Source of the DNA: a phage
Direction: 5' to 3' (one strand)
Sequence record: PZ229304.1
Length of the DNA: 64,000 nucleotides
The translations under genes and the position numbers were made by a program. Below are positions 2,135 through 8,292 of this stretch, piece by piece; the stretch's first letter is position 1; each line of letters opens with the position of its first letter. The notes below the pieces were generated by a model. That model was not told the DNA's origin, searched no databases, and was given only the letters and a program-made list of their open reading frames with translations.

Positions 2135-2569
2135 TTAGTTTAAAATTTCTTTTGCAATGGTAGAAGCAAGTTTTCCATCATATTGATTCGGATACTCTGC
2201 TTTAAGGTGTTTCATCATATCTGGCATTTTCTTGCCTGTCAAGGCAAATTCTTCAGCAATAGAGCGAAGATCATCTTCAGATAGCATTTCTGGCAAATAT
2301 TTTTCCAGAGTGGTGATATCACGCATAGCTCGCTCACACTTGCTAATGGAGGCATTAACTTTCTTAAGCGAGTCTAGTTCCTCTTTAGCGTGTGCAATAC
2401 CAATCTTAACAATGTTAATCATAATATCGTCTTCTGATTTGTTTAGATTTGCCTTTTGAGTACGAGCAAGGTCAAACTCACCAATAATATTAGTTAACAA
2501 AGCAAAAGCACCCTTGTCGGTTGTACGTGCTAAGATACGATCTGCTTTCATTTGTGTCACAATAGACAT
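2135..2569 (-). CDS. GatB/YqeY-domain protein
   Basis: C-terminal LEKYLPEMLSEDDL..IAEEFALTGKKMPDMMKHLKAEYPNQYDGKLASTIAKEIL resembles the YqeY family pattern (EEYLP..LSEEEL.. then ..GK..V..K). Confidence 0.5.
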   Translation of the reverse strand: MSIVTQMKADRILARTTDKGAFALLTNIIGEFDLARTQKANLNKSEDDIMINIVKIGIAHAKEELDSLKKVNASISKCERAMRDITTLEKYLPEMLSEDDLRSIAEEFALTGKKMPDMMKHLKAEYPNQYDGKLASTIAKEILN

Positions 2570-2581
2570 TCTATTCTCCTC

Positions 2582-3154
2582 TTATTTGCTAATGCTTTGA
2601 ATGTTATTTACAACACGGTTTATTGCCAGTGAAGCCCTAGGCTCTGCAATACCTGTTGCATAGATATAAGGATGACCTCTTGGAGACTCCCTCATACCGA
2701 ATGAACCTAATTCTAAACCATATTCATCCTCTACGTCAACCCCAATATTAGTGGGTACTAAATATGTTTTAACTCCATAATAAGTAGAGAAGAAACAGCG
2801 CATAGCGTTAGCATACTCTTCAATTGTAGCATCAGGGTAGAACTCAATCAACTCCAATTTCAAGAAAATATTAAAATGAGTATCATCTAAATTTTCTTCT
2901 GTACGGTAACATGGTGTTAGTGCCATATACGGATTACCTGCTGCAAATTCAAAACCATCCTTCTCCATTTGCAGGAAAGATTGTTCTGCACTGGCTACAT
3001 AGTATTTACCGTTAGGATGCCCTAATGGGCGATCCTCTTTATTTTCTGGTAGTGTGTACGCCAGTATATCAGCATCCACGAGATATGGAACTTCCAACAT
3101 TTGTGCAAACCGACCATAGTAATCAATAGCTTGAGCTATTACTGCAACATTCAT
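2582..3154 (-). CDS. hypothetical protein
   Basis: 190-aa track ORF in operon context; fold not recognised. Confidence 0.45.
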   Translation of the reverse strand: MNVAVIAQAIDYYGRFAQMLEVPYLVDADILAYTLPENKEDRPLGHPNGKYYVASAEQSFLQMEKDGFEFAAGNPYMALTPCYRTEENLDDTHFNIFLKLELIEFYPDATIEEYANAMRCFFSTYYGVKTYLVPTNIGVDVEDEYGLELGSFGMRESPRGHPYIYATGIAEPRASLAINRVVNNIQSISK

Positions 3155-3412: not shown

Positions 3413-6187
3413 TTAGTTTACCAGTTTATTTATATCTGGTAAAAGATTTATTTCACCTAAAAAATCACCTTCACCTTCCTCTAACCAACTCTCATATGCT
3501 TGTGCATGATTATAGTTACCATCAAAAGAATCTGCAACAAATTTTTCTACAGTTTTTCGAGATGTGTCAGCGCCAAATACACCAAGTTTAATACCATTGA
3601 TCGGTAAAGTGGTACTTGTTGGTACTTTCTCTGTTGCAACACGGTTGATATCTATAATCTCCTGTACGGTTGTGTTCCATTGTAAGCATTTAACACAACG
3701 GGTATGCGCTACATACAGTAGGTTTCGCTCTGCCTCTTCCAGTCCTACCCATTCACCAGTCTTTTTATCATAGTTGGAAGGAAAATCATTAGCAACAATA
3801 ACCTGATCCCACTCCAAACCTTTAGACTTGTGTGCTGTAGTCAGTGTGACTTTTGCTGTAGGAGAATTTCTATGCGTTCTAAGTGTATGTGCTATAGTGT
3901 TTGCCTTACCAGAAACTACGATGTTTAACAAGCGTTTAGCATCTGGATCAGCCTCTGCACACTCAACAAATTCATTCCAGTCTGCGTAAGGTAATACAGT
4001 TTCATGTTTTACTTTCTCAATATCTCCTCTCCGAAGAGCATTAACACTATCTACCATAGAGATAAAATCCCTGGTATCTACGTTAATAATAATTTCTTCC
4101 CCATCTGCAATACGATCCATTGCCTCCATAAGCAAGGTTAAATTCTTGCGAAAGATGATAGTGTAAGGTTTTGTATAGTCTACAACATCTGATTTGTAGC
4201 TACCTACTACAGTATCAAAGCCTTTACCAACCAAAGGGTGACGCAAAGGTTCTTTATCGCTTAAAATCATATTGGCAATGTTTGCCACTTTGGGGCCAAA
4301 ACGGAAGCAAGCAGTTAATGGAAGCTCTGCTCCATACTTAGCTGTTTCAATCATCATATTAGAGCTACCTCTAAATTGATAAATGCAGTTGTGGCTAAGA
4401 ATTTCATTACCAAAGAAGTTAGCAGTATCCTCTACTTCAATATCATAATAGATACCTTCACTATCTACAATGTCCACAATTTCTTCTGCCGTTACAGTAT
4501 CACCATCTTTTACCAACACAGACATGCCTTTAAACAAACCCGCCGCCGGAATTAAAGTATATTTGGCGGTGTTCACAGAGGACATGCATTCTTTTAAAGA
4601 TGCAAACGGCACTATTTCAAGGATCTTTTGTGCAAAACTCAATGCTTCACGATAAGAATTGAAATATTTACGTACACGGTAACGACCTTCCAACTTAGCA
4701 ACACTTACGCTTACACCTGCTTCAATGAGTGAAGCATAGATTGACATTTCACTTTCTGTCCACTCAAAACTAACTTGTGTTCCTTTACAACCTTGTGCTC
4801 GCAAAGTCACTGTTAACATTTTTCTTTCATCTACTGCACAATTGATGCTGTGCCAATGTGGATAAGCAAAATGATAATCTTTATCCTCTAAAAGTTTAAA
4901 ACCGTTTTGTCCGAATTGTTCAAAAATGTTATTGATCCTTTCTTGATTAATGCCGCGTGAACTTGCTTCAAATACACAAGTAGGAATGCCATATTGTAAA
5001 CTGTATGCCATTTCTTTTTCCATAGCAGCTTCACGGTTTTCAACAATATCCAACACCCATAATTTCTGTGCTTTTTCAGAACGTGTACGTTGCCCCAGTT
5101 TAGAAAAACCTTCTTTATCATCGAATTTGTTAGTGATCCCTACTCGGAAACCTAAATCTTTCCTCCACATTAGGTATACCACCATCTGATCATCTTTCAG
5201 AACATAGGATGAAGCCCAAATACGATGGTTATGTGTCATATCTAAAGTTTTACCTGTGGCAGTAATAATATTCCTACCTTTTGTACGTGTAGATAAAGTC
5301 TTATTTGTTACTTTTCTAAATGTAATTTTACCATTAGAATAAGACTCTACCTTATCACCGATTTGTAGGTCTTTCATTGTAACCTGACCATTCTCGGTAT
5401 TAAGTACCGTGTTTTCCGACACACATTGGAATTCATCGCCCACTACCACAATTTGTTTTGCAGATTTAGCATTTCGCAGAATAGACAAGAATGCAGGGTT
5501 AACATCCTGGAATTCATCACCAAAAATAATGTCATAACCAAGGTCAGCACCTGATAATTCAAACAATTTTACATAGGTGTCATGCGTCATCAAAGTATCT
5601 GTGTTAGGATCGATGCGCTCTCGCCACAATTGTTTTGCATACTTAACTACTTCTGTAATTAGTTTGTGTTCGTTAATACCTTTTCTTTTAATATCTGCAA
5701 GATGTACACTAGGAAAATGTTTACGGCTGATAAAAGGATCATCCGAAAATTCAAACTTACCTACGGTTTGCTTGATCATTAAACCAATCATAGCACGAGT
5801 TAACAGTGTTTTCCCTCGTTTATCAATAAGATTATTAATCTTAAATTTCTTTGCTATCTCGCTACCTGTACCTGCAACGTTAACATACTGTCCTTCTGGT
5901 CGTGACAGTTTTGCACGTAAACGATGATCCAGGAATTGATAGCAAATAGAATGCAATGTACGGCATTCTACATTTAGTGGCATCTTACGTCGTGCTTCTT
6001 CTGCCATGCTTTTATTGAAAGCTAAGTAAAGAATGCGATCTTCTGTACTGTTAGCCAGCAAATAAAGTGTTGACGTTTTGCCTGATCCAGATTTAGCTTG
6101 GATAGTTAAAAAGCGATGGTCTGGAAAAGCCTCCTTAATAGCTGTTTGCTCTTCTGTTGGAGTGAAGCTCAACTCTTTCTTAGCCAT
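3413..6187 (-). CDS. UvrD/PcrA-like SF1 DNA helicase interrupted by an in-frame intein
   Basis: Walker A (AKSGSGKTST), motif II (GDEFQDVNP), motif III split as GDEFQ / C-IYQFRGS, motif V (TAHKSKGLEWDQVIV), motif VI (LLYVAHTRC). Start trimmed from TTG at 6226 to ATG at 6187 with RBS. Confidence 0.8.
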   Translation of the reverse strand: MAKKELSFTPTEEQTAIKEAFPDHRFLTIQAKSGSGKTSTLYLLANSTEDRILYLAFNKSMAEEARRKMPLNVECRTLHSICYQFLDHRLRAKLSRPEGQYVNVAGTGSEIAKKFKINNLIDKRGKTLLTRAMIGLMIKQTVGKFEFSDDPFISRKHFPSVHLADIKRKGINEHKLITEVVKYAKQLWRERIDPNTDTLMTHDTYVKLFELSGADLGYDIIFGDEFQDVNPAFLSILRNAKSAKQIVVVGDEFQCVSENTVLNTENGQVTMKDLQIGDKVESYSNGKITFRKVTNKTLSTRTKGRNIITATGKTLDMTHNHRIWASSYVLKDDQMVVYLMWRKDLGFRVGITNKFDDKEGFSKLGQRTRSEKAQKLWVLDIVENREAAMEKEMAYSLQYGIPTCVFEASSRGINQERINNIFEQFGQNGFKLLEDKDYHFAYPHWHSINCAVDERKMLTVTLRAQGCKGTQVSFEWTESEMSIYASLIEAGVSVSVAKLEGRYRVRKYFNSYREALSFAQKILEIVPFASLKECMSSVNTAKYTLIPAAGLFKGMSVLVKDGDTVTAEEIVDIVDSEGIYYDIEVEDTANFFGNEILSHNCIYQFRGSSNMMIETAKYGAELPLTACFRFGPKVANIANMILSDKEPLRHPLVGKGFDTVVGSYKSDVVDYTKPYTIIFRKNLTLLMEAMDRIADGEEIIINVDTRDFISMVDSVNALRRGDIEKVKHETVLPYADWNEFVECAEADPDAKRLLNIVVSGKANTIAHTLRTHRNSPTAKVTLTTAHKSKGLEWDQVIVANDFPSNYDKKTGEWVGLEEAERNLLYVAHTRCVKCLQWNTTVQEIIDINRVATEKVPTSTTLPINGIKLGVFGADTSRKTVEKFVADSFDGNYNHAQAYESWLEEGEGDFLGEINLLPDINKLVN
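4388..5425 (-). mobile_element. intein (346 aa) inside helicase motif III; central domain may be a homing endonuclease of unidentified type
   Basis: N-terminal Cys (codon aca at 5423-5425 on plus, TGT on minus), block B-like TxxH (MTHNH), C-terminal YDIEVEDTANFFGNEILSHN followed by +1 Cys (4385-4387); removing it restores the canonical motif III GDEFQ-CIYQFRG. Confidence 0.7.
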
Positions 6188-6188
6188 T

Positions 6189-6665
6189 TCAACCTCTCTT
6201 AATTTGTTTAACAAGCATAGGAACAAAGTCTCGTTTTAAAATTTGTTCAATAATATGATCAGGTAGCTGTTGGAAATTATAATTAAAAGCTACTGTCTCA
6301 CCTTTAGGTGTTTCTACCCGCACATATAACATGTTACGAAGTTTATCCACTTGTGCTGTATATTCTAAACCATGTAATTGATGCATTGCAAACATCAAAT
6401 CATCAGTTTCAGTTTGGAATCTATCCCTTCCCTGCATCAAGGACAAGGAAAAAGGTAGATTTTCCCTAAGAGCCACCTTCTTAGGCACTAGTGAAGGGAA
6501 ATACTCCCCAATAACTGCCTGTGTAAGCTGAATACACTCTTTTTCAAGCTGGTTTTGTTCCTTGAGTTCACAAACACTCTTTTGTAAAGTGTTAACCTCT
6601 TTTTGCAAAGCTGCTAGTTGAGCACTTAACTTTCTTTTTTGATTACGACCAAAACGTTTAGACAT
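6189..6665 (-). CDS. hypothetical protein
   Basis: 158-aa track ORF, ATG start. Confidence 0.45.
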   Translation of the reverse strand: MSKRFGRNQKRKLSAQLAALQKEVNTLQKSVCELKEQNQLEKECIQLTQAVIGEYFPSLVPKKVALRENLPFSLSLMQGRDRFQTETDDLMFAMHQLHGLEYTAQVDKLRNMLYVRVETPKGETVAFNYNFQQLPDHIIEQILKRDFVPMLVKQIKRG

Positions 6666-7210: not shown

Positions 7211-7576
7211 TTAAACGTTTTCTAAATCTTTTAAGGCATTACCCAACGTTAAAACAATAACATCGTTTGCTGCCTCTTCCCCATTGATATTGGTGAAATT
7301 TGGTGTGACAAAAGTAACCATATAAAACTCGTCCACCTGGAAGATAGCAATAACACCATCCATCTTAACATCTTGACGAAAGGAAAAACCAATCATCTTC
7401 TCTTGCAAAGGCATATCCCCTTCCTTCATTACCGCTAGGGAGTTTTCAGGAATGTTATATTTATCTGCTCCTATGTAGATGTACGTAATGTTATCTTTAT
7501 CGTGATGATACAGGGTTGCTTTTTCCATATCTAAACCTGACAAATCAAATACGTTAATTTCTTGTGTAGTCTTCAT
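7211..7576 (-). CDS. hypothetical protein
   Basis: Track ORF trimmed to ATG at 7576 (GGGAGGA RBS). Confidence 0.4.
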   Translation of the reverse strand: MKTTQEINVFDLSGLDMEKATLYHHDKDNITYIYIGADKYNIPENSLAVMKEGDMPLQEKMIGFSFRQDVKMDGVIAIFQVDEFYMVTFVTPNFTNINGEEAANDVIVLTLGNALKDLENV

Positions 7577-7940
7577 AAATATCCTCCCAAATCCAATAAT
7601 CATCTGTGTAAGTAGGATGCCTTTTATCCCACTCTGTTCTAGCCCAAGCAACCGCTGCTACCAACACATCACCATGACAAGGTTGAGGTGAGCAGAAGCA
7701 AACTAAGTCTTTCCCTTCTAATTCTAACAAATCCTCAAGAGTGATTTTACCACAACGAATTTGTTCCCACAACCACTCTTTATATCTTTGTATAGTTGAT
7801 CCTCGTGGTTCGTCATCCTTTAACTTAAAAGGATTTGCAAACTTTGAGGCTTTTAACCCCATATGAGGCATAGCTCTGCCAATGTACACTGCACCTTCAG
7901 GTATTACTTTACCTAAGTGGTAAAAATTTAATACTTTCAT
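7554..7940 (-). CDS. DUF4326-like phage protein
   Basis: LVCFCSPQPCHGDVL motif typical of the DUF4326 family; trimmed from TTG at 7964 to ATG at 7940. Confidence 0.5.
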   Translation of the reverse strand: MKVLNFYHLGKVIPEGAVYIGRAMPHMGLKASKFANPFKLKDDEPRGSTIQRYKEWLWEQIRCGKITLEDLLELEGKDLVCFCSPQPCHGDVLVAAVAWARTEWDKRHPTYTDDYWIWEDIYEDYTRN

Positions 7941-7941
7941 A

Positions 7942-8292
7942 TTAACCCAAACACATCTGTGCAATCAAGCCCTGTATAAATTTATTAGCTTCTTTACTGT
8001 CGTAGTCAGTCTCTTCTGGATATCCATCTTCATCGTACACAACTGTACCTTCAATATACCCTGCCTCAATTAAGGCGCGGATCATATCAAATTGCCAGCA
8101 TGAGTTACCAAATGGACGTTTACCATTAAAACACTCTTCTTCTCTCCATAACGTAGAGAGTAGTTGTCGGAAATATTCCCGTACAGTGACAGTACCAAGA
8201 TCTGAATCCTCAAACATAACATCCAGGGCATCAGGATTGCTTTTCTCTACATAAGGAATATATTTAACACCATTAATAGTTACATCAAGCAT
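7942..8292 (-). CDS. hypothetical protein
   Basis: 116-aa track ORF, ATG start. Confidence 0.45.
   Translation of the reverse strand: MLDVTINGVKYIPYVEKSNPDALDVMFEDSDLGTVTVREYFRQLLSTLWREEECFNGKRPFGNSCWQFDMIRALIEAGYIEGTVVYDEDGYPEETDYDSKEANKFIQGLIAQMCLG

What the first reader, a model, noticed from the sequence alone, without database searches (positions are those of the whole stretch)
4388..5425. Intein inserted in motif III of a UvrD-like helicase
The helicase reading frame is continuous, but the motif III signature is split by a 346-aa insertion that starts with Cys, contains a TxxH block and ends ..SHN followed by Cys. The central 200 residues are large enough for a homing endonuclease, though no LAGLIDADG or HNH motif was recognised by eye.
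Basis: partly seen in the sequence, partly recalled or inferred. Interest (0 to 1): 0.65.

Follow-up and report, generated by a model that had tools for sequence, protein, structure and literature searches.

The report
Mobile intein in phage helicase
A 346-residue self-splicing protein element (intein) really does interrupt motif III of the UvrD-like helicase of this phi92-type E. coli phage; it is already annotated in sister phages, but its central, probably DNA-cutting domain belongs to a widespread family that no database yet describes.

Summary

About 22 near-identical phi92-like phage records lack exactly these 1038 nt and have an intact GDE[YF]Q-SIYQFRG. About 38 carry the intein.

In the ten alleles compared, the intein moves with about 77 bp of foreign flanking extein (a co-conversion patch). 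It is also far less diverged between distant phages than the helicase around it. Both are hallmarks of homing.

The intein is not new. GenBank records of sister phages (PaulScherrer, JohannJBalmer, vB_EcoM_ZYD) already annotate it, and UvrD inteins are a known class.

The central ~210 residues are less ordinary:
- They are neither LAGLIDADG nor HNH.
- They match no Pfam, NCBIfam, PHROG or PDB sequence.
- They occur in at least 1411 protein clusters, nearly always inside SF1 helicases at motif III or II.

Free-standing relatives sit next to intact helicase genes.

The parts
3413..6187 (-). UvrD/Rep-like SF1 helicase precursor CDS: 924 aa plus stop, ATG at 6187. The mechanical ORF extends to a TTG at 6226.
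   Evidence: ORF list. Pfam UvrD-helicase, UvrD_C and AAA_19; PHROG 1967 'DNA helicase' E=4e-162. Same CDS limits as annotated in phages PaulScherrer and phi92.
5426..6187 (-). N-extein, 254 aa, ending ...VVVGDEFQ (first half of helicase motif III).
   Evidence: Alignment with intein-free alleles; lengths.
4388..5425 (-). Intein, 346 aa, 39.3 kDa, CVSENTVL...EILSHN.
5201..5425 (-). Hint N-terminal splicing lobe, residues 1-75. Block A Cys1 (5423-5425); block B T64xxH67 (His67 at 5225-5227).
   Evidence: TIGR01445 and Pfam Hint matches. C1, G13, G58 and H67 invariant in 36 relatives. Beta strands 7-71 in the model.
4841..5200 (-). Central subdomain 1, residues 76-195. A beta-beta-alpha-beta-alpha core plus two helices. 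Invariant Y84, G92, R94, G96, E117, W123, E138, P148; R113 in at least 90%. Putative nuclease core, GIY-YIG-like.
4565..4840 (-). Central subdomain 2, residues 196-287. An alpha/beta module (beta hairpins 196-223, helix 230-235, strand 248-255, helix 258-271, strand 275-282). Possibly DNA recognition. The most variable part of the intein.
4388..4564 (-). Hint C-terminal splicing lobe, residues 288-346. Block F Asp328 (4442-4444); block G His345-Asn346 (4388-4393).
   Evidence: TIGR01443 above cut-off. A294 and N346 invariant; D328 and H345 in at least 90%. Strands 288-345 in the model.
3416..4387 (-). C-extein, 324 aa, starting with the +1 nucleophile Cys (4385-4387): CIYQFRGSS... (second half of motif III).
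5426..5452 (-). Upstream arm of the co-conversion patch (-26 to 0). Substitutions here are perfectly linked to intein presence.
   Evidence: Six occupied versus four empty alleles; similarity to the KP2025 flank.
4337..4387 (-). Downstream arm of the co-conversion patch (+1 to +51). Includes the Ser-to-Cys change at +1 and the Gln-to-Ser change at +9.

Best explanation
This is a class-1 intein that is mobile by homing. It sits in motif III of the UvrD-like helicase of a phi92-type (Justusliebigvirus) E. coli phage.

How it works:
1. The helicase is translated as a 104.6-kDa precursor.
2. The Hint domain, made of residues 1-75 and 288-346 folded together, excises the 39.3-kDa intein. The steps are an N-S acyl shift at Cys1, trans-thioesterification to Cys+1, Asn346 cyclisation and an S-N shift.
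3. This ligates a 65.3-kDa helicase with motif III restored as GDEFQ-CIYQFRG.
4. At the DNA level, the central ~210-residue domain is most likely a site-specific endonuclease. During co-infection it would cut intein-free helicase alleles at the motif III coding sequence.
5. Repair from the occupied allele copies in the intein together with a short stretch of flanking extein.

Shown here: the in-frame insertion, the Hint fold, all the splicing residues, the precise presence/absence polymorphism, the linked flank patch, intein-versus-extein divergence discordance, and purifying selection on the central domain.

Inferred: that splicing occurs, that the central domain cleaves DNA, and that its catalytic core is GIY-YIG-like (Tyr84, Arg94, Arg113, Glu138).

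My sub-probabilities:
- genuine intein: 0.97
- spread by endonuclease-driven homing, now or recently: 0.8
- nuclease core derived from GIY-YIG: about 0.5
For: Intein identity:
- Continuous frame with C1, T64xxH67, D328, H345-N346 and C+1.
- Pfam and NCBIfam intein/Hint matches. All 36 relatives match Intein_splicing.

Not a helicase domain:
- Alleles ~98% identical lack exactly 1038 nt and read GDEYQ-SIYQFRG.
- About 38 phage records are occupied and about 22 phi92-like records are empty.

Mobility:
- About 25 substitutions between -26 and +51 nt are perfectly linked to intein presence in 6 occupied versus 4 empty alleles. Polymorphisms further out are shared between the two groups. Window versus Nernie: 4 differences in 700 nt upstream, 27 in the central 200 nt, 9 in 875 nt downstream.
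- The linked flank resembles the flank of intein-bearing Klebsiella phage KP2025 (68/84) more than the empty alleles of its own genus (57/84).
- Intein dS against KP2025 is 0.33, while the N-extein dS is saturated.
- The same intein sits at the same site in KP13-16, whose helicase is only 49% identical overall.

Functional central domain:
- dN/dS 0.095 over residues 76-195.
- Y84, G92, R94, G96, E117, W123, E138 and P148 are invariant in 36 relatives that are 28-50% identical.
- The central-domain residues are also kept in free-standing relatives that have lost Cys1 and the terminal Asn. The domain's function is therefore independent of splicing.
- There are 1411 cluster representatives. Nearly all of the top 150 sit inside SF1 helicases at motif III or motif II.

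GIY-YIG lead:
- Beta81-88 / beta92-98 / alpha111-116 / beta121-128 / alpha131-145 topology.
- A 'VVY-x9-RVG' motif.
- The only hhalign segment places E138 on the catalytic E75 of I-TevI.
Against: No experiment exists: neither splicing nor DNA cleavage has been shown for this intein or, as far as I could find, for any member of its family.

The nuclease assignment is weak:
- No Pfam, NCBIfam, PHROG or PDB-sequence match to any nuclease.
- hhalign against an I-TevI-type GIY-YIG profile is not significant: probability 1-2%, P 0.025-0.05, against 0.08-0.14 for reversed controls.
- The first Tyr of the 'YIG' motif is Arg here, and no equivalent of the conserved GIY-YIG Asn was identified.

The linked flank block has nearly the same limits in all six occupied alleles. 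That fits one old invasion followed by ordinary recombination as well as it fits repeated recent homing.

Today's empty alleles differ from the intein-linked flank at about 25 of 77 positions. They may no longer be cleavable targets.
Confidence: 0.8

Rival explanations
1. A splicing-competent intein whose central domain is no longer, or never was, an active endonuclease. It could be a DNA-binding or purely structural module. In this reading the intein persists by vertical descent and spreads only through the frequent general recombination between co-infecting phages.
Against: dN/dS is 0.095 on the conserved half of the central domain. Charged and aromatic residues are invariant across relatives 28-50% identical. 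The domain is retained in free-standing descendants that have lost the splicing residues, which is hard to explain for a passive spacer. The same intein sits in helicases 49-86% identical, with intein divergence far below extein divergence. General recombination alone would not be expected to carry an insertion into such diverged flanks.
Confidence: 0.15
2. An active homing endonuclease domain whose catalytic core is not GIY-YIG-related. It would be a different nuclease fold, or a new one, that only shares a small beta-beta-alpha-beta-alpha unit by convergence.
Confidence: 0.35
3. The insertion is a lineage-specific accessory domain of the helicase that stays in the mature protein and is not spliced.
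For: The phi92 RefSeq record describes the protein only as a helicase with '2 discontinuous domains'. Most records call it simply 'DNA helicase'.
Against: It has a Hint fold with every catalytic splicing residue. It interrupts the invariant motif III between Gln and Ser/Cys. Viable sister phages lack it precisely. It occurs at the same motif in more than 100 unrelated SF1 helicases, always bounded by Cys/...His-Asn + Ser/Cys.
Confidence: 0.02

Closest known systems
The intein annotated in the UvrD/Rep helicase of Escherichia phages PaulScherrer (Bas60, MZ501100), JohannJBalmer (MZ501084) and vB_EcoM_ZYD (PQ110661)
   Same: It is the same element: 96.5-98.1% nucleotide identity, same gene, same insertion point.
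   Different: The PaulScherrer mat_peptide is 1041 nt, so it includes the +1 Cys codon, which by convention belongs to the C-extein. Those records give no endonuclease assignment. Most other sister records, phi92 included, do not annotate the intein at all. A 2024 paper still states that no inteins have been reported in coliphages (PMC11162368).
Bacterial UvrD inteins (Novikova et al. 2016, PMC4760082: 16 UvrD inteins in Acidobacteria, Actinobacteria, Deinococcus-Thermus, Firmicutes and Proteobacteria)
   Same: The host protein family is the same. My survey shows the same intein type in more than 100 diverse UvrD/PcrA/AddA-like proteins at GDxxQ|C...HN|[S/C]IYxFRG.
   Different: This copy is in a virulent E. 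coli phage. The survey paper does not describe the insertion site or the endonuclease type in the text I read.
PI-SceI (VMA1) and other LAGLIDADG-bearing homing inteins (PI-PfuI, PI-PkoII, Tli/Pho VMA)
   Different: The central domain is unrelated. Foldseek TMq is 0.30 or less over the whole protein, there is no LAGLIDADG motif and no DOD profile match.
GIY-YIG nucleases (I-TevI catalytic domain, UvrC N-terminal domain 1ycz, PD-T4-3 9u75)
   Different: No significant sequence or profile similarity. 'YIG' is R-[VI]-G. No conserved Asn was identified. The domain is embedded in an intein and followed by a different alpha/beta module rather than the I-TevI linker and helix-turn-helix domain.
Yeast HO endonuclease (a free-standing, intein-derived endonuclease; Taylor & Stoddard 2012, PMC3384342)
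   Same: This applies to the free-standing relatives (P0003, P0004). They are Hint-flanked endonuclease proteins that have lost the splicing residues and are encoded as independent genes.
   Different: The nuclease domain is different. They occur in phage-like contigs immediately downstream of an intact copy of the presumed target gene. Nothing is known of their activity.

Membership tests
Intein (class 1, Hint superfamily) | Hint (horseshoe beta) fold formed by the N- and C-terminal segments | tested here: met
Intein (class 1, Hint superfamily) | Block A nucleophile (Cys/Ser) as residue 1 | tested here: met
   Cys1 at window 5423-5425. Invariant in 36 relatives.
Intein (class 1, Hint superfamily) | Block B TxxH | tested here: met
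   T64-H-N-H67. His67 is invariant; relatives mostly have SPNH.
Intein (class 1, Hint superfamily) | Block G penultimate His plus terminal Asn, followed by a +1 Cys/Ser/Thr | tested here: met
   H345-N346 | C+1. N346 invariant, H345 in at least 90%. Relatives have Ser or Cys at +1.
Intein (class 1, Hint superfamily) | In-frame insertion in a conserved host motif, with intein-free homologues in which the motif is contiguous | tested here: met
   Empty alleles read GDE[YF]Q-SIYQFRG, with a gap of exactly 346 codons.
Intein (class 1, Hint superfamily) | Autocatalytic protein splicing of the precursor | not testable with these tools
   Indirect evidence only. About 38 isolated, viable phage records carry the interrupted helicase. 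The predicted products are 65.3 and 39.3 kDa.
Homing (mobile) genetic element | Sporadic presence/absence among close relatives at one precise site | tested here: met
   About 38 occupied and about 22 empty phi92-like records. The genes are otherwise ~98% identical.
Homing (mobile) genetic element | Co-conversion of flanking markers | tested here: met
   A -26 to +51 nt block is perfectly linked to the intein in 6 versus 4 alleles, and is donor-like (closest to KP2025).
Homing (mobile) genetic element | Element less diverged than its host gene between lineages (horizontal transfer) | tested here: met
   Intein dS 0.33 against a saturated extein dS, window versus KP2025. The same intein is present in the KP13-16 helicase, 49% identical overall.
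Homing (mobile) genetic element | Site-specific cleavage of the empty allele by the encoded endonuclease | not testable with these tools
   No experiment was possible. No report was found in the searchable library.
LAGLIDADG (DOD) homing endonuclease | One or two LAGLIDADG motifs and an alpha-beta-beta-alpha-beta-beta-alpha fold | tested here: not met
   No DOD/LAGLIDADG profile hit in any of 36 members even at E up to 10. LAGLIDADG-bearing inteins match only on the Hint part, TMq 0.30 or less.
HNH homing endonuclease | HNH / beta-beta-alpha-metal motif | tested here: not met
GIY-YIG nuclease superfamily | Three-stranded sheet with a beta-beta-alpha-beta-alpha core topology | tested here: met
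   Strands 81-88, 92-98 and 121-128; helices 111-116 and 131-145 in the pLDDT-93 model.
GIY-YIG nuclease superfamily | GIY and YIG motifs 10-11 residues apart, plus conserved Arg, Glu and Asn | tested here: inconclusive
   V-V-Y84 ... R94-V-G96 with Tyr and Gly invariant and about the right spacing. R113 is present in at least 90% and E138 is invariant. However, the first Tyr of YIG is Arg and no conserved Asn was found. The reference set A8 shows Y6, Y17, G19, R27, H31, E75 and N90 invariant.
GIY-YIG nuclease superfamily | Significant sequence or profile similarity to family members | tested here: not met
   Pfam: none in 36 members. PDB profile search: 0 hits. hhalign probability 1-2%, P 0.025-0.05. 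Only I-TevI-type references were available, so other branches of the superfamily were not tested.
GIY-YIG nuclease superfamily | Structural similarity to solved GIY-YIG domains | tested here: inconclusive
SF1 UvrD/Rep helicase (host protein) | Walker A, motif II (DExQD), motif III (GDxxQSIYxFRG) and UvrD_C domains | tested here: met
   Pfam UvrD-helicase 1.2e-11, UvrD_C 8.4e-11, AAA_19 5.8e-10. AKSGSGKT, GDEFQDVN and the restored GDEFQ-CIYQFRG are visible in the alignment.

The most novel reading that the evidence does not exclude
The central domain founds an undescribed but very widespread family of intein-borne homing endonucleases: at least 1411 clusters at 50% identity. It would combine a highly diverged GIY-YIG-type catalytic core with an alpha/beta DNA-recognition module, and would be specialised on the motif III and motif II coding sequences of SF1 helicases.

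The same family has repeatedly escaped its intein. The result is free-standing endonuclease genes, still carrying Hint remnants, that sit beside uninterrupted helicase genes in phages. This would be a prokaryotic parallel to the origin of yeast HO. It would add a further structural class to the short list of nucleases known to mobilise inteins.
Probability: 0.4. Interest if true: 0.55.

Novelty: already known. Interest (0 to 1): 0.3.

Why it matters
The finding as stated is correct but routine. It is an intein in a helicase ATPase motif, already annotated in sister phages, and belongs to a known class of UvrD inteins.

Practical value:
- Most of the ~38 public phi92-like records, the phi92 reference included, label the gene only 'DNA helicase' or 'hypothetical protein' and could be corrected.
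- The BASEL collection holds both intein-plus phages (PaulScherrer, JohannJBalmer) and an intein-minus phage (EmilieFrey). These are closely related, genetically tractable E. coli phages, so this is a convenient natural system for measuring intein homing and co-conversion in crosses.

Scientific value lies in the central domain. Current surveys treat anything other than LAGLIDADG as a rare, non-canonical intein endonuclease. This is a non-LAGLIDADG, non-HNH domain with no database model that is nonetheless present in more than a thousand protein clusters. Characterising it would fill a real gap in the catalogue of homing endonucleases. It might also supply new long-target nucleases.

Tried and rejected
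1. Reading the interval on the + strand gives stop-filled nonsense. The gene is on the minus strand.

2. A single-sequence AlphaFold run failed (pLDDT 31). It was replaced by a run with a 36-sequence alignment.

3. Word-indexed homologue searches found only 2 and 4 relatives, and not even the phi92 protein itself. The exhaustive HMMER search was needed to see the family.

4. The central domain found nothing credible in Pfam, NCBIfam, PHROGs or PDB sequences. It was tried alone, as a 4-sequence profile and as a 36-sequence profile. The best hit was a chance match to a TPR protein at E=0.077.

5. The GIY-YIG idea came from eye-reading 'VVY...RVG'. I tested it with a reference profile built from I-TevI, whose sequence I verified at 100% identity against T4-type phages, plus ten annotated relatives. 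hhalign was not significant, so I report it as a lead only.

6. The AlphaFold-database fold libraries were not available. I therefore could not check the spatial clustering of the invariant residues or search the central domain alone.

7. A nuclease encoded in another frame or on the antisense strand, as described for some actinophage inteins, is unlikely. No alternative ORF of 80 aa or more lies inside the intein; the longest are 79 and 77 aa. I did not search these against profiles.

8. The idea that the insertion is a helicase accessory domain was rejected (see rival explanations).

9. No tRNA genes occur in the window. Neighbouring genes gave only YqeY-like and DUF4326 matches, which are unrelated to the intein.
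Full report
WHAT THE WINDOW IS

The helicase region is 97-99% identical to phi92-like E. coli myoviruses (genus Justusliebigvirus, subfamily Stephanstirmvirinae). The best match is phage vB_EcoM_ESCO32 at 99.0%.

THE OBSERVATION

On the + strand the interval 4388-5425 is full of stops. On the minus strand it is an open 346-codon stretch, CVSENTVL...FFGNEILSHN. It lies inside one long ORF, 3413-6226(-). The CDS annotated in sister phages corresponds to window 3413-6187 and gives a 924-aa protein starting MAKKEL.

The flanks are ...VVVGDEFQ and CIYQFRGSS.... Together they make the SF1 helicase motif III. The precursor matches Pfam UvrD-helicase, UvrD_C and AAA_19, and PHROG 1967 'DNA helicase'. 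Only the strand was left unstated.

IS IT AN INTEIN?

Four independent lines of evidence say yes.

1. Profiles. Pfam Intein_splicing E=3.9e-8, Hint 1.2e-6 and Hint_2 2.3e-4. The NCBIfam intein C-terminal region scores above its cut-off and the N-terminal region just below.

2. Residues. Cys1, T64-x-x-H67, Asp328 and His345-Asn346 are present, followed by Cys+1. In an alignment of 36 relatives only 28-50% identical, C1, G13, G58, H67 and N346 are invariant, and D328 and H345 are present in at least 90%.

4. Empty alleles. Phages inny, Nernie, ESCO8, JLBYU50, EC_OE_11 and 92CQ match the gene at 97-98.5% in two pieces spanning 1776 nt, which is 2814 minus 1038. Their proteins read VVGDEYQ-SIYQFRGSQ with a gap of exactly 346 residues. 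The more distant Phapecoctavirus ukendt shows the same.

IS IT MOBILE?

The intein DNA occurs in about 38 records at 96-99.6% identity. It also occurs in Klebsiella phage KP2025 (89.5%) and Klebsiella phage KP13-16 (66.8%). About 22 phi92-like records, and about 97 Phapecoctavirus-like records, carry the empty site.

Comparing the window with inny, 27 of the 43 extein differences fall between -26 and +57 nt of the insertion point.

I extended this to six occupied alleles (window, PaulScherrer, phi92, PHB05, muut, pEC-M2929) and four empty ones (inny, Nernie, 92CQ, EC_OE_11). About 25 substitutions from -26 to +51 are perfectly linked to intein presence. Polymorphisms further out are shared between occupied and empty genomes. 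Window versus Nernie has 4 differences in 700 nt upstream, 27 in the central 200 nt and 9 in 875 nt downstream.

The linked patch changes the protein from DEYQ|SIYQFRGSQNMMKETS to DEFQ|CIYQFRGSSNMMIETA. It is closer to the flank of intein-bearing KP2025 (68/84) than to the empty alleles of its own genus (57/84). Those empty alleles in turn resemble empty Phapecoctavirus (70/84). This is the footprint expected if the intein was copied in by break repair together with a short tract of donor extein.

Between the window and KP2025 the intein has dS 0.33, while the N-extein dS is saturated. In KP13-16 the same intein sits at the same site in a helicase that is only 49% identical overall. Both results indicate horizontal transfer of the element independently of its host gene.

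Caveat: the block limits are almost the same in all six occupied alleles. One old invasion followed by recombination cannot be excluded, and present-day empty sites may have diverged from the target.

THE CENTRAL DOMAIN

Residues about 76-287 match nothing in any of these:
- Pfam, NCBIfam or PHROGs, even when all 36 relatives are scanned at E up to 10;
- PDB sequences, whether queried as a single sequence, a 4-sequence profile or a 36-sequence profile.

The domain is nevertheless common. A profile search of 1.84 billion cluster representatives found 1411 proteins at E of 1e-3 or better, and 115 at 1e-30 or better.

The ten hits I scanned are UvrD/PcrA-type helicases carrying the Intein_splicing signature, or short intein-like ORFs. 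Boundary extraction from the top 150 shows the insertion at GDxxQ|C...HN|[S/C]IYxFRG (motif III) in more than 100 of them. It also appears at two motif II sites: VDE|C...SHN|CQDLN and DEAQDLNK|C...SHN|[T/C]Q.

Within the central domain Y84, M86, G92, R94, G96, E117, W123, E138, P148 and P189 are invariant. R113 is present in at least 90%. dN/dS against KP2025 is 0.095 for residues 76-195.

The model shows strand 81-88, strand 92-98, helix 111-116, strand 121-128 and helix 131-145, then two helices. A second alpha/beta module follows (residues 196-282).

This places Tyr84 in the first strand, R94-x-G96 in the second, Arg113 in the first helix and Glu138 in the second. That is the layout of GIY-YIG nucleases as I know it from the UvrC and I-TevI structures (my own knowledge).

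I built a GIY-YIG reference profile from I-TevI, verified at 100% identity against T4-type phages, and ten annotated relatives. Its invariant columns are the textbook Y6, Y17, G19, R27, H31, E75 and N90. hhalign against the intein domain gives probability 1-2% and P 0.025-0.05, compared with 0.08-0.14 for reversed controls. The only aligned segment puts E138 on E75.

I therefore rate a GIY-YIG-derived core at about 0.5. Topology and residue pattern support it, structure supports it weakly, and sequence statistics do not support it.

The domain is clearly not LAGLIDADG or HNH. Solved and predicted LAGLIDADG-bearing inteins align only on the Hint part (TMq 0.30 or less). In the viral structure library, apart from the phi92-type helicase itself, only two other proteins share the whole architecture: a siphovirus helicase and a protein annotated as an adenine methyltransferase, both at TMq about 0.6. 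No alternative-frame or antisense ORF of 80 aa or more lies inside the intein.

FREE-STANDING RELATIVES

Several family members are 300-350-aa proteins that begin around intein residue 15-20, so they lack Cys1. They end in His-Ser, His-Glu or similar instead of His-Asn.

P0003 and P0004 are separate genes. Each starts about 46-48 nt downstream of a complete, uninterrupted UvrD-like helicase of 499 or 489 aa, and each arrangement is seen on more than one contig. The L006 helicase has motif III GDTNQ-AIYGFRG, with Ala at the position an intein would need as a nucleophile.

These proteins keep all the central-domain invariants. That argues the domain has a function of its own, most simply DNA cleavage.

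WHAT IS ALREADY KNOWN

GenBank records for phages PaulScherrer and JohannJBalmer (BASEL collection) annotate an 'intein-containing UvrD / Rep family helicase precursor' with an intein mat_peptide. vB_EcoM_ZYD is annotated as 'intein-containing UvrD'.

The BASEL paper says only that inteins were identified by comparative annotation (PMC8594841). The phi92 reference notes '2 discontinuous domains'. A 2024 paper states that no inteins have been reported in E. coli or coliphages (PMC11162368).

UvrD is among the 15 most frequent bacterial intein hosts (PMC4760082).

Reviews and a 2025 survey list these intein endonuclease types:
- LAGLIDADG, treated as canonical;
- in-frame HNH, VSR-like, antisense LAGLIDADG and out-of-frame EndoVII-like, treated as rare.
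GIY-YIG is mentioned only in passing (PMC3384342, PMC7765530, bioRxiv 10.1101/2025.01.02.630785).

I found no description of the domain studied here. My literature access is limited to open-access full text.

VERDICT

The element is a known kind of thing and is already annotated in sister genomes, so novelty is 'already known' and interest is modest (0.3).

The residual interest lies in three points:
- the uncharacterised but widespread endonuclease-like domain;
- its free-standing derivatives next to intact helicase genes;
- the convenient E. coli phage system for testing homing.

Noticed in passing
L006:4001-5002 (JGI 3300045700 Ga0486075_000056, 163-kb contig) and L007; L025:1943-2929 and L026: There are free-standing 328-333-aa genes (P0003, P0004) homologous to the whole intein. 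They lack the first ~15-18 residues, including Cys1, and end in His-Ser or His-Glu instead of His-Asn. Each lies ~46-48 nt downstream of an uninterrupted UvrD-like helicase of 499 or 489 aa. The L006 helicase has motif III GDTNQ-AIYGFRG, with a non-nucleophilic Ala at +1. They look like intein-derived free-standing homing endonuclease genes sitting beside their presumed target gene.
   Followed up: partly
L005:2206-5802 (Klebsiella phage KP13-16, OP617741, annotated 'hypothetical protein'): This 1198-aa helicase carries two inteins. One is the motif III intein studied here. The other is a LAGLIDADG-type intein in the Walker A P-loop (AKAGTGK|AQPLTAVV...FIVTHN|TSTL). It appears to start with Ala rather than Cys/Ser, which suggests a non-class-1 splicing mechanism.
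   Followed up: partly
Proteins P0006-P0011, P0013, P0072, P0087 (1800-2500 aa): Some very large SF1 helicase-like proteins contain two or three copies of this intein type in one polypeptide. The sites are motif II (VDE|C...HN|CQDLN and DEAQDLNK|C...) and motif III. The same intein family therefore targets at least three neighbouring sites of the ATPase core.
   Followed up: no
window 4565-4840 (-), intein residues 196-287: Between the window and KP2025 this second central subdomain has dS 0.97 and dN 0.215. [quoted passage not shown] That gives a mosaic pattern suggesting recombination or module exchange inside the intein, possibly in the DNA-recognition part.
   Followed up: no
Public records MG065639, MG065645, MG065656, MG065689, MG065650 ('Campylobacter phage' A150, A145, C3, A110a, B15): In the helicase region these records are 98.5% identical to phi92-like or Phapecoctavirus-like E. 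coli phages, and they have similar genome sizes (146-151 kb). The host labels look doubtful, perhaps from contamination or mislabelling.
   Followed up: no
BFVD entry A0A8S5TZY8: A 782-aa protein annotated as 'Adenine specific DNA methyltransferase' from an uncultured myovirus shares the full Hint + central-domain architecture (TMq 0.59). Either the intein type also invades a methyltransferase, or the annotation is wrong.
   Followed up: no
window 2135-3154 (-) and 7554-7964 (-): Neighbouring genes encode a YqeY-like protein (Pfam E=9e-7), a 190-aa protein annotated in PaulScherrer as a 'putative tRNA synthetase' but with no Pfam match here, and a DUF4326 protein. ARAGORN finds no tRNA genes anywhere in the 64-kb window.
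   Followed up: partly
PaulScherrer MZ501100 mat_peptide 69265-70305: The public intein annotation is 1041 nt (347 codons), so it includes the +1 Cys codon. By convention, and by the splicing chemistry, that codon belongs to the C-extein. This is a minor annotation inaccuracy.
   Followed up: yes
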